This document shows positions 44,010 through 51,836 of a stretch of DNA of 64,000 bases, piece by piece (within the stretch, counting starts at the first letter, position 1; every line of letters begins with the position of its first letter). The DNA comes from Escherichia phage moha. The notes below the pieces were generated by a model, which saw nothing but the letters and a program-made list of their open reading frames with translations, ran no database searches and was not told where the DNA came from. Position numbers and translations under genes: made by a program. The stretch is from the sequence record MN850590.1. One strand, written 5' to 3'.

Positions 44010-44242
44010 GTATAGCAATTTACATTAAATCAGAATCATGTGATAGTTATCTGTACACATACGATAAAGATGTGTCAGAAGAAAAAATCAAAGACGACCT
44101 TAATATGGACCTTGATATGTTCTGTCCTATTGCAGATTACAAACTTGCGGTCTCTAATAGTGAAAGTCCATCTAAAGAAACGCGCATTGAAGAATTTATG
44201 TCCGAATTAATGGCCAAATCATGGAACCGAGATGATGAGTAA
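44006..44242 (+). CDS. hypothetical protein (about 78 aa)
   Basis: ATGA overlap with the upstream stop; the ORF track start at 43991 is the alternative. Confidence 0.4.
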   Translation: MSIAIYIKSESCDSYLYTYDKDVSEEKIKDDLNMDLDMFCPIADYKLAVSNSESPSKETRIEEFMSELMAKSWNRDDE

Positions 44243-44690
44243 GAAAAATAAAGTGAAAGAACTATCAGCCGGTATTATTTTCCTTACCGAAGATAAAGAA
44301 TTATTCATGGGGCGTGTAACTGGTTCTCGTCCTAAAGGTTCTTTAGCTCATCGGTGGGATATTCCTAAAGGACGTGTCGAGCCCGGTGAATCTCCTATTG
44401 AAGCCGCTATTCGTGAATGCGAAGAAGAAACTGGGTTTACACAATATGACCCTGCCTTCCTGAAAGACCTAGGTGAACATCATTACTCAGACAATAAGAA
44501 TATTCATCTGTTCCTATATACCATCCCTGTAGAGCACGAGCAATTCAGAAACAGTGTTTGTAATTCCTATCATACATTCCCAGACGGACGTCAGATTCCT
44601 GAATTTGATGCATTCGCTTTAATTAAACCTTCTCAATGGGAATATGTAATGGGCAAATCATTATATAAGGTGCTCACTACCCTCCTATAA
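44232..44690 (+). CDS. nudE: Nudix hydrolase
   Basis: 152-aa ORF with a Nudix box (GRVEPGESPIEAAIRECEEETG), directly upstream of e in this window. Confidence 0.85.
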   Translation: MMSKKNKVKELSAGIIFLTEDKELFMGRVTGSRPKGSLAHRWDIPKGRVEPGESPIEAAIRECEEETGFTQYDPAFLKDLGEHHYSDNKNIHLFLYTIPVEHEQFRNSVCNSYHTFPDGRQIPEFDAFALIKPSQWEYVMGKSLYKVLTTLL

Positions 44691-48489: not shown

Positions 48490-48745
48490 AGATATTAAAG
48501 GTTACAAACCGCACACCGATGACAAAATCGGTAAAGTGAACGCTATTAAAGATGCCGAAGTCCGTCTTGGATTGTTGTTTGATGCTCTGATTGAAGAAGC
48601 ATATATCTTGAAAGAAAATGAAACAGAGCAACAAACCAAAGAAGATATGGATGCAGTGCAGGCTCTTAAGTATGCTAAGCAACATCTAAAAGAAGCCAGC
48701 ATGTGGGCATGCCGTGCAGTATTTCGACCTGAGGAAAAATACTAG
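48479..48745 (+). CDS. hypothetical protein (88 aa)
   Basis: Start taken at the ATG overlapping the upstream stop; the longer ORF-track frame from 48311 is probably not translated. Confidence 0.45.
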   Translation: MSIEDIKGYKPHTDDKIGKVNAIKDAEVRLGLLFDALIEEAYILKENETEQQTKEDMDAVQALKYAKQHLKEASMWACRAVFRPEEKY

Positions 48746-48954
48746 TGAAAATTGAAAGTTTGCAAGAATTCCAACGTATCATTAGCGAAGCCTGTACCGG
48801 TTACCACAAATATTTGCTCGATGACCAGGTTGCTTGTCTTGAAGAAGGCGAAATGCAGTACGCTGTCCAGCGCCTTGAACAAGTGAAAGAGTTTTATCCT
48901 GCAATGGTAGAAATTTGTTCGATAGCTGGAAAACTCACACCATTCCAAGAATAA
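48745..48954 (+). CDS. hypothetical protein (69 aa, GTG start)
   Basis: GTG start preceded by GAGGAAAAA. Confidence 0.4.
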   Translation: MKIESLQEFQRIISEACTGYHKYLLDDQVACLEEGEMQYAVQRLEQVKEFYPAMVEICSIAGKLTPFQE

Positions 48955-48958
48955 AGTA

Positions 48959-49009
48959 GTTTACTTCTCCTCTAGTTGTGTTACTATAGACCTGTCAACT
49001 AGAGGAGAA
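48959..49009 (+). promoter_or_regulatory. early-type promoter with a 14-bp Shine-Dalgarno-sequestering inverted repeat, upstream of regB
   Basis: GTTTAC, left arm TTCTCCTCTAGTTG (48965-48978), TG-t-TACTAT -10, right arm CAACTAGAGGAGAA (48996-49009). Confidence 0.65.
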
Positions 49010-49015
49010 ATCAAA

Positions 49016-49474
49016 ATGACTATCAATTCAGACGTTTTTATCCGCCGTAATAAACTCCGTCGAATCTTTGAAACGGAGTTCCGCAAAATAAATGCCAGTA
49101 TAAAAGATGCTGCAAAGTCTCTTGGACTACCAGGCTTTCATATCAAGTATTCTCAACATCTCTTAGATCGTGCCATCCAGAGAGAAATAGATGAGAATTA
49201 CGTTTTTGAATTATTTCATAAAGTAAAAAATCATGTTAAAGAAGTTGCAGAATTTTTATCAATGCCGGCACGTCCAGATGTTGATGAAGATTTTGTCGAA
49301 GGTGTCGAATATCGCCCAGGCCGTTTAGAAATAACTGACGGAAATCTTTGGTTAGGACTTACAGTTTGTCGCGAAAATCCGGCATTCAAAATGAAGACTC
49401 TTCAATGTAGAATGGCTATTATTAACAGTAAACGACTACCAGGAAAAGCTTCTAAAGCAGTGATTAAAATCTAG
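49016..49474 (+). CDS. regB: RegB endoribonuclease
   Basis: 152-aa ORF (T4 RegB is 153 aa) recognisable as RegB, located between denV and tk. Confidence 0.8.
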   Translation: MTINSDVFIRRNKLRRIFETEFRKINASIKDAAKSLGLPGFHIKYSQHLLDRAIQREIDENYVFELFHKVKNHVKEVAEFLSMPARPDVDEDFVEGVEYRPGRLEITDGNLWLGLTVCRENPAFKMKTLQCRMAIINSKRLPGKASKAVIKI

Positions 49475-49482
49475 AGGTAAAC

Positions 49483-50025
49483 ATGAGAAAAGCACTACTC
49501 GCTGGTCTATTTGCTCTTTCATTATCAGCACATAGCTCCGAGCATACTTTTAGTAATGTCCAACTCGATAACTTGAATTATGCTTATCAGTTTGGGGAAC
49601 AGTTTTCTAAGGATGGAAAATTTAAAACGCATGAAAATATGCATAAGAAAGGACTTGGATACATAATGGCCGCAATACTATGGCAGGAATCATCTGCCGG
49701 TATTAATCTTAAAGATAAGAAAGGTCACCATGCGTATGGAATGTTCCAAAATTATCTACCGACAATGAGGGCAAGAATTAACCAGCTTGGTTATAATATG
49801 ACTGATGCCCAAATTAAGAAAATGCTATCTAAGCGGTCTAATTCAGCCAGATGGGCTTATATCGAATTTTCTTATTGGTTAAATATACATAACGGGGATA
49901 TAAGAAAAGCTATATCCTCATATAATGCGGGATGGAAGACAAGTGCCGGAAGTAAATATGCTTCTGAAGTCCTAGAAAAGGCTAATTACCTTAAATCAAA
50001 TAAACTACTGGAAATAAAAGAATGA
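49483..50025 (+). CDS. secreted lytic transglycosylase (SLT-domain)-like protein (180 aa)
   Basis: N-terminal signal peptide (MRKALLAGLFALSLSAHS) and SLT-like motifs (WQESSAG, GMFQ, YNAGW). Confidence 0.55.
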   Translation: MRKALLAGLFALSLSAHSSEHTFSNVQLDNLNYAYQFGEQFSKDGKFKTHENMHKKGLGYIMAAILWQESSAGINLKDKKGHHAYGMFQNYLPTMRARINQLGYNMTDAQIKKMLSKRSNSARWAYIEFSYWLNIHNGDIRKAISSYNAGWKTSAGSKYASEVLEKANYLKSNKLLEIKE

Positions 50026-50369
50026 CCAAAATGTTGGCTTTAATAGTTGGCTTGGTTTCATTTAATGCTCTTGCTAATACTACATATACTGATGTAACGG
50101 AGTATACAAACAGAACGGCGTCTGATTATTGTGGTAAAAGTCAAGAGTGTAAAGTAGATTTTTCACAAAAATTGTTATATGCGTATAAAGACGGAGAAAA
50201 AGACGGGGCGTCTAGTAGGTTCAAGGCGTCTACCTTAATTAAAAGATACTATAAAAAATGGCAAATATTAGAATGCTCGGTGGCGGAACCTAAAGATAAG
50301 GCAGCATGCAATTCTATGGTGGACCGTCTAGTTGACTCTTATAATAGAGGACTTGCAGCAAGTGATTAA
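50022..50369 (+). CDS. secreted hypothetical protein (115 aa)
   Basis: Signal peptide (MTKMLALIVGLVSFNALA) and four cysteines; ATGA overlap with the SLT-like gene. Confidence 0.55.
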   Translation: MTKMLALIVGLVSFNALANTTYTDVTEYTNRTASDYCGKSQECKVDFSQKLLYAYKDGEKDGASSRFKASTLIKRYYKKWQILECSVAEPKDKAACNSMVDRLVDSYNRGLAASD

Positions 50370-50826
50370 AAACTATATCAAGGGCGATATTGTCGCCCTG
50401 TTTTCTAAAGGTAATAATATTGCTCATGGGTGTAATTGTTTTCATACAATGGGCGCGGGTGTGGCAGGACAATTAGCAAAGGCTTATCCAAAAATTCTGG
50501 AAGCCGATAAACTTCAAACCGAATTCGGAGACGAGTCTAAACTCGGGACTTATTCGGTTTATGAAAAATATTTTAAGACCCATAAAGCTTATTGCTTTAA
50601 TCTTTATACACAGTTTGAGCCGGGACCTAATTTTGAGTACTCTGCTTTAATGAATTGTATAATAGAATTAAATGAATTCGGAAAGAATAAGATAACAAAG
50701 CCTGTAATTTATATGCCAAGAATTGGTGCAGGTATTGGTGGTGGAAACTGGGATGTCATCGAAGAGATTTTAGATACGTATTCCACTAAACTAGAAATTG
50801 TGATTGTTGATTGGGAACCTAAATGA
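50362..50826 (+). CDS. macro domain (ADP-ribose binding/hydrolase) protein
   Basis: Motifs KGDIVALF, IAHGCNCFHTMGAGVAGQL and PRIGAGIGGG. Start is uncertain: GTG at 50362 lies 10 nt after a TAGAGGA Shine-Dalgarno, and the ORF-track start at 50332 is a TTG. Confidence 0.65.
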   Translation: MIKNYIKGDIVALFSKGNNIAHGCNCFHTMGAGVAGQLAKAYPKILEADKLQTEFGDESKLGTYSVYEKYFKTHKAYCFNLYTQFEPGPNFEYSALMNCIIELNEFGKNKITKPVIYMPRIGAGIGGGNWDVIEEILDTYSTKLEIVIVDWEPK

Positions 50827-51005
50827 AATTAACTAAAGAAGAGAAAGCTAAACTGTTCGAACTTATCCATGACCTATTGGATGAACAAGCAGCCACCAAT
50901 GCGTATGATGAATATGCTCCTTTAACAGATGAAGAATATCAAGCATTGATGGAATCATTTGACAGGAAAGAACAAGAACTCATTGACTACGTGAATTCAC
51001 TATAA
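50823..51005 (+). CDS. hypothetical small acidic protein (60 aa)
   Basis: ORF with start overlapping the upstream stop. Confidence 0.45.
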   Translation: MKLTKEEKAKLFELIHDLLDEQAATNAYDEYAPLTDEEYQALMESFDRKEQELIDYVNSL

Positions 51006-51014
51006 GGGACTCTT

Positions 51015-51596
51015 ATGGCTAGTTTAATTTTTACCTATGCCGCTATGAACGCTGGTAAGTCTGCTTCATTACTTACTGCCGCACATAACTATAAAGAACG
51101 TGGCATGGGTGTATTAGTTCTTAAACCGGCTATTGATACTCGCGATTCAAAAGGTGAAATAGTCTCTCGTATTGGTATTCGTCAGGACGCCAATATAATT
51201 ACAAAAGACATGGATATCTTTGAATTTTATAAATGGGCTGCAGCACAAAAGGATATTCACTGCGTATTTGTTGACGAAGCTCAGTTCTTAACTACTGAAA
51301 AGGTGTATCAACTTAGTCGTATTGTTGACGTATACAATGTGCCGGTAATGGCATATGGACTACGAACAGATTTTAAAGGTAATCTATTTGAAGGTTCTCA
51401 AGCATTAATGGCTATTGCCGATAAGCTTGTTGAACTTAAAGGTGTCTGTCATTGTGGTAAAAAGGCCACAATGGTAGCTAGAGTCACGGAAGACGGACTT
51501 CCAATTACAGATGGCAGTCAAATTGAAATTGGTGATACCGATAGATATGTGTCATTATGCCGGAAGCATTGGAACGATTTGACAGGGTTGTTATAA
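51015..51596 (+). CDS. tk: thymidine kinase
   Basis: 193-aa ORF with a P-loop (AAMNAGKSASL) and a C-terminal CHCGKKA zinc motif; recognisable as T4 Tk and the same length. Confidence 0.93.
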   Translation: MASLIFTYAAMNAGKSASLLTAAHNYKERGMGVLVLKPAIDTRDSKGEIVSRIGIRQDANIITKDMDIFEFYKWAAAQKDIHCVFVDEAQFLTTEKVYQLSRIVDVYNVPVMAYGLRTDFKGNLFEGSQALMAIADKLVELKGVCHCGKKATMVARVTEDGLPITDGSQIEIGDTDRYVSLCRKHWNDLTGLL

Positions 51597-51623
51597 ATAC
51601 TAATATCTAACCAAGAGGTATAT

Positions 51624-51836
51624 ATGCAGCAATTAAACGAAAGACAACTTCGTAATCTTACTGTAACCCAATTGGATGAAATCCGAAGAGAATTAGGACA
51701 TTCTATTTCTCATTTAAACGAGGATATCCGTCAAACTGGTTCTAAAGCTGATTATACACGCAAGCGCAAGCTGGAAAAATACCTCACAGATGTTAAGGCC
51801 GTCCAAAGGCGAAAAATAAATACTGGCCAAAATTAA
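51624..51836 (+). CDS. hypothetical protein (70 aa)
   Basis: ORF after an AAGAGG Shine-Dalgarno. Confidence 0.5.

What the first reader, a model, noticed from the sequence alone, without database searches (positions are those of the whole stretch)
50362..50826. Macro-domain protein between regB and tk: candidate ADP-ribose hydrolase
The translation carries the macro-domain hallmarks in the right order and spacing: GDI near the N-terminus, IAHGCNCFHTMGAGVAGQL (compare the canonical NAAN...GGGV...AI segment) and a C-terminal PRIGAGIGGG phosphate-binding loop. I do not recall a macro domain in the T4 reference gene set. In a phage that uses ADP-ribosyltransferases, such a protein could reverse ADP-ribose marks, either to tune the phage's own modification of host proteins or to counter ADP-ribosylating host defences. 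The start codon is unresolved (GTG at 50362 versus TTG at 50332).
Basis: partly seen in the sequence, partly recalled or inferred. Interest (0 to 1): 0.65.

Follow-up and report, generated by a model that had tools for sequence, protein, structure and literature searches.

The report
Phage Tk.4/AdfM macrodomain, already known
The flagged ORF is a real macro-domain protein, but it is the long-annotated T4-family gene tk.4, recently renamed adfM after a T4 knockout became sensitive to the DNA-ADP-ribosylating defence DarTG2, so it is a correct call and not a new one.

Summary

T4 tk.4 is 84% identical, sits in the same vs-tk.4-tk position, and dN/dS is 0.065. About 2,800 phage records carry a homolog.

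A 2025 preprint (HIDEN-SEQ) found tk.4 to be the only T4 gene needed on DarTG2 hosts, confirmed this with a clean knockout, and renamed it AdfM. The 'tune the phage's own ADP-ribosyltransferases' branch is not.

My added point concerns the active site. The catalytic Lys of DarG/TARG1 is an invariant Gln (Q84) in the Tk.4 family, as in Streptomyces SCO6735 (Q85), which cleaves thymidine-ADP-ribose. Tk.4 fails every DarG membership test. It is also a different lineage from PhiKZ gp104, which carries the same name AdfM.

Hydrolase activity of Tk.4 itself has not been shown. Novelty: already known. Interest is low.

The parts
50362..50826 (+). tk.4 / adfM coding sequence (154 aa, GTG start, TGA stop): single macro domain
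   Evidence: ORF list. Pfam Macro above cut-off. RB69p113 has the same coordinates and start. 84% identity to T4 Tk.4. AF2 pLDDT 95.6.
50347..50351 (+). Shine-Dalgarno GAGGA, 10 nt upstream of the GTG start, inside the 3' end of vs
   Evidence: Sequence. The same GAGGA sits at the same distance before T4's ATG.
50362..50369 (+). 8-nt overlap GTGATTAA between the tk.4 start and the vs stop, suggesting translational coupling (inferred)
   Evidence: T4 has an ATGA overlap at the same junction.
50383..50391 (+). GDI (aa 8-10), N-terminal strand motif shared with SCO6735/BT1257/TARG1-class proteins (Y[IV][KR]GD)
50419..50475 (+). Loop-1 region IAHGCNCFHTMGAGVAGQL. Contains invariant H22, nearly invariant N25, and the G31-x-G33 motif. 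N25 aligns with the DarG 'NTVN' Asn and with PhiKZ AdfM N23.
   Evidence: Family invariants. hhalign to DarG-type profile. PhiKZ N23A reduces activity.
50611..50613 (+). Codon for Q84 at the end of strand beta 75-84. This is the position of the catalytic Lys in DarG (K80) and TARG1 (K84) and of Gln85 in SCO6735.
   Evidence: Invariant in 54 family members. hhalign to DarG profile pairs T83-Q84 with T-K. hhalign to the SCO6735/BT1257/ALC1 profile pairs Q84 with Q85. The role of SCO6735 Q85 comes from PMC9411070.
50716..50745 (+). Loop-2 PRIGAGIGGG (aa 119-128), the diphosphate-binding loop. It matches SCO6735/BT1257 PRIGCGLAGG more closely than DarG PPLGAGNGG.
50823..50826 (+). ATGA overlap between the tk.4 stop and the tk.2 start

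Best explanation
The ORF is the RB69-type ortholog of T4 gene tk.4, recently renamed adfM (anti-DarT factor, macrodomain). It is a stand-alone early-region macrodomain of the TARG1-like (ALC1-like) class. Its most likely job is counter-defence. When a host DarTG2 toxin-antitoxin system releases DarT2, that enzyme ADP-ribosylates thymidines in single-stranded phage DNA and blocks replication. Tk.4 would bind the ADP-ribose through its two glycine-rich loops and hydrolyse the thymine-ribose bond, restoring replicable DNA and releasing free ADP-ribose. The chemistry is probably SCO6735-like and not DarG-like: an invariant Gln (Q84) replaces the catalytic Lys, which points to substrate positioning plus an activated water. 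Shown here: gene identity, fold class, residue equivalences, purifying selection and distribution. Shown in the literature for the T4 ortholog: the genetic requirement on DarTG2 hosts. Inferred: enzymatic removal of ADP-ribose from DNA, the Gln-based mechanism, and transfer of the phenotype to this RB69-like allele.
Against: No biochemical assay of any Tk.4-type protein was found. The preprint itself says only that enzymatic removal 'seems likely'. The phenotype is shown for T4 and not for an RB69-type phage. Tk.4 lacks the catalytic Lys of DarG, SCO6735's K34 (A32 here), and its long Lys-bearing mobile loop, so DNA handling may differ. The source is a single preprint.
Confidence: 0.68

Rival explanations
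1. Non-enzymatic antitoxin. Tk.4 neutralises DarT2 mainly by binding it or shielding modified DNA ('interaction-inhibition'), with hydrolysis secondary or absent.
For: Catalytically dead SCO6735 Q85A, DarG K80A and TARG1 K84A still inhibit DarT in vitro. Tk.4 lacks the canonical catalytic Lys. Other phage anti-DarT factors, AdfA and AdfB, are described as blocking DarT activity, and AdfB appears to act through direct interaction.
Against: The residues lining the ADP-ribose pocket are invariant across a family that has diverged to about 40% identity: H22, N25, G31/G33, Q84 and the PRIGxG loop. That pattern is expected for a catalyst. Tk.4 also lacks the C-terminal DarT-binding domain of DarG.
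Confidence: 0.12
2. ADP-ribose-1''-phosphate phosphatase (the historical 'A1pp phosphatase' annotation, Poa1p-like), clearing a by-product of RNA repair or splicing.
Against: The annotation is purely homology-based. The only phenotype reported for the T4 gene is DarTG2 sensitivity. From established knowledge, not tested here, T4 RNA repair by Pnk and Rnl leaves no 2'-phosphate and therefore no Appr>p. The Poa1p match is strong only over the N-terminal half.
Confidence: 0.08
3. Hydrolase or sponge for small ADP-ribose-derived molecules (O-acetyl-ADP-ribose, cyclic or conjugated ADPr immune signals). This would blunt NAD-based signalling defences and would not involve repairing DNA.
For: [quoted passage not shown] JGI names several homologs 'O-acetyl-ADP-ribose deacetylase'. 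One metagenomic homolog lies near a cREC_REC gene, a domain predicted to process ADPr derivatives.
Confidence: 0.08
4. Eraser for the phage's own ADP-ribosyltransferases (Alt, ModA, ModB), tuning modification of host RNA polymerase and ribosomal proteins.
For: T-even phages carry such transferases and a macro domain in the same genome. No direct evidence was found.
Against: From established knowledge, not tested here, Alt, ModA and ModB modify arginine. Arg-ADPr is removed by ARH/DraG-type enzymes and not by macrodomains. None of these transferase genes is in the window. Tk.4 homologs also occur in many non-T4-like phages, but whether those carry Alt/Mod homologs was not checked.
Confidence: 0.04

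Closest known systems
T4 Tk.4 = AdfM (T4p110, NP_049723; HIDEN-SEQ preprint 10.1101/2025.11.20.689424)
   Same: Ortholog: 84% identity over 153 aa, same length, same vs-tk.4-tk position, same Shine-Dalgarno sequence and start position, all family-invariant residues shared.
   Different: GTG start where T4 has ATG. A32 (T4 S32, RB69 G32) and G127 (T4 K127) lie in the two binding loops. tk.3 and tk.1 are absent between tk.4 and tk. The anti-DarTG2 phenotype is shown only for T4.
Streptomyces coelicolor SCO6735 and Bacteroides BT1257 (PDB 5e3b, 2fg1/2afc): Gln-type ALC1-like macrodomains
   Different: The mobile loop after the Gln is 5-6 residues shorter and lacks Lys89/Lys93. K34 is Ala32. Tk.4 has a longer beta-hairpin before the Gln strand. 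Sequence identity is only about 25-30%. Tk.4 is phage-borne, not chromosomal.
DarG antitoxin macrodomain (T. aquaticus 5m31/5m3e, M. tuberculosis 5m3i; NCBIfam NF048014)
   Different: No catalytic Lys (Q84). No C-terminal DarT-binding domain. No adjacent darT. Scores 32.4 bits against the 250-bit equivalog cut-off.
PhiKZ gp104 'AdfM' (Cell Rep 2026, PMC13309987)
   Same: A phage-encoded stand-alone macrodomain that counters DarTG2. De-ADP-ribosylation of TNTC oligonucleotides has been demonstrated for it.
   Different: PhiKZ gp104 is a true DarG-type protein: FPTKDNWR motif with the Lys, E=9e-25 to Mtb DarG, 132.9 bits on the PADLOC DarG model against 33.7 for Tk.4. Only a 23-residue local BLASTP match to Tk.4. 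The shared name hides two separate lineages.
Human TARG1/OARD1 (4j5r) and yeast Poa1p (6lfq)
   Different: The TARG1 Lys84/Asp125 dyad is absent. Q84 takes the place of the Lys. The Asp position is Gly126 by my recollection of the TARG1 sequence, which was not verified with a tool. Poa1p's known activity is Appr1p phosphatase.

Membership tests
Macro domain superfamily (Pfam PF01661) | Profile match above the curated gathering score | tested here: met
   28.1 bits against cut-off 22, E=2.1e-6, profile positions 2-117 of 118.
Macro domain superfamily (Pfam PF01661) | Three-layer alpha/beta/alpha macro fold | tested here: met
Macro domain superfamily (Pfam PF01661) | Binds ADP-ribose in the cleft between the two Gly-rich loops | not testable with these tools
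   Both loops are present and family-invariant (MGAG; PRIGAGIGGG). Binding itself needs ITC or a crystal structure.
TARG1-like / ALC1-like macrodomain class | Closest structural neighbours are TARG1, DarG, SCO6735/BT1257 and Poa1p, and not MacroD/PARG/viral Mac1 | tested here: met
TARG1-like / ALC1-like macrodomain class | Hydrolysis of thymine-linked ADP-ribose on ssDNA | not testable with these tools
   Shown for TARG1, DarG and SCO6735. For Tk.4 there is only the T4 genetic phenotype.
T4 Tk.4/AdfM orthologous group | High full-length identity to T4 Tk.4 and the same genomic position (vs upstream, tk downstream) | tested here: met
   84% identity over 153 aa. Synteny shown.
T4 Tk.4/AdfM orthologous group | Required for growth on DarTG2-expressing hosts | not testable with these tools
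   Shown for T4 only.
DarG antitoxin (NCBIfam NF048014 equivalog; PADLOC DarG) | Score above the equivalog cut-off | tested here: not met
   32.4 bits against 250.
DarG antitoxin (NCBIfam NF048014 equivalog; PADLOC DarG) | C-terminal DarT-binding domain | tested here: not met
   The protein is 154 aa. Only profile positions 4-148 of 338 and 4-145 of 329 are matched.
DarG antitoxin (NCBIfam NF048014 equivalog; PADLOC DarG) | Catalytic lysine (Taq K80) in the FPTK motif | tested here: not met
   hhalign pairs NLYTQ with NFPTK. Q84 is invariant in the family.
DarG antitoxin (NCBIfam NF048014 equivalog; PADLOC DarG) | Encoded next to a darT toxin gene | tested here: not met
   The neighbours are vs and tk.2. 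Two metagenomic homolog contexts also showed no gene with a DarT Pfam hit; most of their neighbours have no Pfam hit at all.
SCO6735/BT1257 Gln-type macrodomains | Gln at the position of the DarG/TARG1 catalytic Lys | tested here: met
   hhalign pairs Q84 with SCO6735 Q85. Numbering checked against the 5e3b chain.
SCO6735/BT1257 Gln-type macrodomains | Extended Lys-bearing mobile loop (K89, K93) and K34 that position DNA | tested here: not met
   The loop is 5-6 residues shorter (FEPGPN, no Lys). K34 aligns with A32.
MacroD/YmdB-type O-acetyl-ADP-ribose deacetylases | MacroD-class fold neighbours and the catalytic Asp after the GGG[VI] motif (motif recalled from memory) | tested here: not met

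The most novel reading that the evidence does not exclude
Tk.4-type proteins may be a distinct, phage-specific branch of Gln-type TARG1-like hydrolases, recruited against DarT2 independently of the Lys-type DarG-like AdfM of chimalliviruses. By analogy with SCO6735 they could have a wider substrate range: thymine-ADPr on DNA, uracil-ADPr on RNA, and Asp/Glu-ADPr on protein. One small early protein could then blunt several ADP-ribosylating defences. Its short, Lys-free loop would imply a mode of ssDNA engagement not yet described.
Probability: 0.3. Interest if true: 0.45.

Novelty: already known. Interest (0 to 1): 0.22.

Why it matters
The gene is ordinary in annotation terms. It has been annotated in the T4 and RB69 reference records with an 'A1pp phosphatase motif', is already labelled a macro-domain protein in many GenBank records, and is present in about 5% of sequenced phage records. 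A recent preprint assigned its biological role as an anti-DarTG2 factor. The remaining value is mechanistic. No Tk.4-type protein has been assayed. Its active site has Gln where DarG has Lys. It shares a name with a non-orthologous PhiKZ enzyme. Settling this would show whether phages reached DNA de-ADP-ribosylation at least twice from different macrodomain lineages, and whether RB69-type phages, which are DarTG1-sensitive, rely on this gene for DarTG2 resistance.

Tried and rejected
(1) TTG 50332 as the start: rejected. The extra 10 residues have no homolog, and T4's ATG aligns with GTG 50362.
(2) The primary DarTG phage paper (LeRoux 2022), to check RB69 on DarTG2: not held by DOI or by the PMC id I guessed. 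Only indirect review statements were found.
(3) Promoter scan of 48700-51800: 8 sigma-70-like sites against 9.9 expected from shuffles, so no evidence for a dedicated promoter.
(4) The phmmer pairwise alignment to BT1257 is ungapped across the catalytic strand and shifts the Gln by 6 residues. I replaced it with profile-profile alignment, which inserts the loop gap and pairs Q84 with Q85.
(5) Looked for a darT next to metagenomic homologs, to test an 'orphan antitoxin' origin. No gene with a DarT Pfam hit was found in the two contexts examined, where most neighbours have no Pfam hit at all.
(6) ICP1 AdfB as a possible relative: it acts through direct interaction with DarT, and nothing in the paper describes it as a macrodomain.
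(7) Searched T5 for any TARG1-like macro ORF, expecting none because T5 is DarTG2-sensitive. None was found, while the positive control in the window was found.

Full report
**What is in the sequence**

The + strand between 49.0 and 51.6 kb carries a tight run of ORFs: regB (49016-49474, Pfam REGB_T4 E=2e-69), vs.1 (49483-50025), vs (50022-50369), the flagged ORF (50332/50362-50826), tk.2 (50823-51005, DUF7438) and tk (51015-51596, Pfam TK E=7e-57).

**What the window is, and which gene this is**

Megablast of 49000-51700 finds 151 phage records covering at least 80% of the query. RB69 matches in one piece at 99.0% identity. In RB69 the ORF is tk.4 (RB69p113, 'phosphatase; contains A1pp phosphatase motif'), annotated from the same GTG. 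Its product differs from the window's protein at one residue, A32 against G32. The T4 reference genome carries tk.4 (T4p110, NP_049723) in the same place, between vs and tk. It is 84% identical over 153 residues.

Many GenBank records already call this gene 'macro domain protein'. By tblastn, 2,800 of 50,697 phage records hold a homolog at E<=1e-5. PHROG 335 covers it at E=6e-67.

**Start codon**

T4's ATG aligns exactly with the window's GTG at 50362. Both sit about 10 nt behind the same GAGGA. All 54 aligned family members begin MI..(Y)IKGD. The TTG at 50332 would add ten residues with no counterpart in any homolog. The GTG overlaps the vs stop (GTGATTAA), and the tk.4 stop overlaps the tk.2 start (ATGA).

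**Is it a real, constrained macro domain**

- Pfam Macro: 28.1 bits against a gathering cut-off of 22.
- dN/dS against T4 tk.4: 0.065, with dS 1.35.
- AlphaFold2 model built on a 54-sequence alignment: pLDDT 95.6, pTM 0.91.

The protein is thus a TARG1-like (ALC1-like) macrodomain and not a MacroD/YmdB-type one.

**What is known about its function**

A bioRxiv preprint of November 2025 (HIDEN-SEQ, 10.1101/2025.11.20.689424) screened a T4 transposon library on a DarTG2-expressing host and found one significant hit, tk.4. A clean tk.4 knockout was sensitised to DarTG2. The authors renamed the gene adfM. They state only that enzymatic removal of ADP-ribose from DNA 'seems likely'.

Earlier work fits this. 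T2 and T4 lacking the NADAR factor AdfN remain DarTG2-resistant, so another factor had to exist.

As a consistency check I searched all 121,750 bp of T5, which is DarTG2-sensitive, with profiles of the Tk.4, DarG and SCO6735 types. No ORF matched. The same search in the window returned only tk.4.

**Active site: works like DarG, but is not a DarG**

Profile-profile alignment to a DarG-type profile (T. aquaticus, M. tuberculosis and Thermosipho DarG plus PhiKZ gp104) gives 98.7% probability. It pairs Tk.4 NLYTQ84 with DarG NFPTK, so the catalytic lysine (Taq K80) is a glutamine in Tk.4. Q84 is invariant in the 54-member family, together with H22, G33, D49, N80, Y82, T83, P119, G122 and G124. 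N25 is nearly invariant.

Alignment to an SCO6735/BT1257/ALC1 profile gives 98.5% probability and pairs Q84 with SCO6735 Gln85. SCO6735's mobile loop is 5-6 residues longer.

The SCO6735 paper (PMC9411070) shows that this Gln sits at the Lys position, that Q85A abolishes activity, that the enzyme cleaves thymidine-linked ADP-ribose on DNA, and that it rescues cells from DarT. It proposes a water-mediated mechanism. A 2026 study confirms that TARG1, DarG and SCO6735 all reverse T-ADPr and U-ADPr.

Tk.4 also shares AH.CN and PRIGxGxxGGxW with SCO6735 and BT1257. It lacks their K34 (A32 here) and the Lys-bearing long loop.

Against DarG membership:
- NCBIfam DarG equivalog scores 32.4 bits against a cut-off of 250.
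- Only the macro half of the DarG profiles is matched.
- There is no adjacent darT.

**Two proteins called AdfM**

PhiKZ gp104, named AdfM in a 2026 Cell Reports paper, removes DarT2-made ADP-ribose from TNTC oligonucleotides in vitro. It is a true DarG-type macrodomain. It carries the FPTKDNWR motif, scores E=9e-25 to M. tuberculosis DarG, and reaches 132.9 bits on the PADLOC DarG model against 33.7 bits for Tk.4. It shares only a 23-residue local BLASTP match with Tk.4. The shared name covers two lineages.

**Most likely mechanism and its rivals**

Best reading (confidence about 0.68): an early stand-alone macrodomain binds ADP-ribosyl-thymidine on single-stranded phage DNA and hydrolyses the base-ribose bond. 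Q84 would position the substrate and an activated water would do the chemistry.

The steps have different standing:
- Shown here: gene identity, fold class and residue equivalences.
- Shown elsewhere for the T4 ortholog: the genetic requirement on DarTG2 hosts.
- Inferred: hydrolysis by Tk.4, the Gln-based mechanism, and transfer of the phenotype to the RB69-type allele.

Rivals:
- Non-enzymatic inhibition of DarT2 (0.12). Catalytically dead SCO6735, DarG and TARG1 still inhibit DarT.
- The historical Appr1p phosphatase annotation (0.08).
- Processing of small ADPr-derived signals, as proposed generically for phage macrodomains (0.08).
- Erasing the phage's own arginine-ADP-ribosylation (0.04). 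This is disfavoured on established enzymology and was not tested here.

**Verdict**

The macro-domain call is correct. The anti-defence idea matches recent T4 genetics. The novelty claim is wrong. This is an already known gene with a recently assigned role.

Noticed in passing
window 50381-50399 (context 50375-50399): A GC-rich hairpin, AGGGCGA-TATTG-TCGCCCT followed by GTTTTCT, lies inside codons 7-13 of tk.4. The 25 nt ATATCAAGGGCGATATTGTCGCCCT are identical in the window, T4 and SHFML-11 (whose Tk.4 is only about 59% identical), despite dS 1.35 over the gene as a whole. They are not conserved in Karamvirus RZH or Klebsiella phage Roth68. This could be a recombination junction or an RNA structure. 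It is unresolved.
   Followed up: partly
window 50022-50369 (vs) and 49483-50025 (vs.1): Both proteins begin with Sec-signal-like N-termini: Vs MTKMLALIVGLVSFNALA|NTT, T4 Vs MTKILVLCIGLISFSASASA|DT, and Vs.1 MRKALLAGLFALSLSAHS|SEH. That fits Vs.1, which has a weak SLT transglycosylase hit (E=0.0013, below cut-off). It is odd for a protein annotated as a modifier of cytoplasmic valyl-tRNA synthetase. This is judged by eye, with no signal-peptide predictor. The HIDEN-SEQ preprint reports vs as the most depleted T4 gene in M9-glucose.
   Followed up: partly
window 44232-44690 (+): nudE, a Nudix hydrolase, is annotated in RB69 as active on ADP-ribose, FAD, NADH and diadenosine polyphosphates. It lies 5.7 kb upstream on the same strand. 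It could dispose of the free ADP-ribose that Tk.4 would release. This is speculation.
   Followed up: no
window about 50823 (tk.4/tk.2 junction); L010:1827-2242: Several relatives that are 99% identical (JK45, KAW3E185, APCEc01 and others) carry two extra small ORFs of 213 and 207 nt between tk.4 and tk.2. The window and RB69 lack them, and T4 has tk.3 there. The tk.4-tk interval is a variable cassette site.
   Followed up: partly
L004:5001-5741 and L004:7309-7623: A longer metagenomic Tk.4 homolog (P0118, 246 aa) sits about 1.5 kb from a gene with a cREC_REC domain (PF20274). A comparative survey predicted this domain to process ADP-ribose derivatives.
   Followed up: no
L007:1501-1980 (Shigella phage SHFML-11): The deposited annotation starts the tk.4 homolog at 1588, although the tblastn match and the conserved ATG are at 1501. 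The annotated product appears to be truncated by 29 N-terminal residues, including the GD motif.
   Followed up: no
L013:6447-8094 (phage T5): The T5 record annotates two 'Sir2' genes, T5.102 and T5.105. No TARG1-like macrodomain (Tk.4-, DarG- or SCO6735-type profile) is present anywhere in the genome. T5.105 (168 aa) is labelled Sir2 only by similarity to Aeh1 and 44RR ORFs and may deserve re-examination.
   Followed up: partly
literature: The name AdfM was given independently to T4 Tk.4 (Gln-type, this family) and to PhiKZ gp104 (Lys-type, DarG-like). They are not orthologs, which is a nomenclature clash likely to cause annotation errors.
   Followed up: yes
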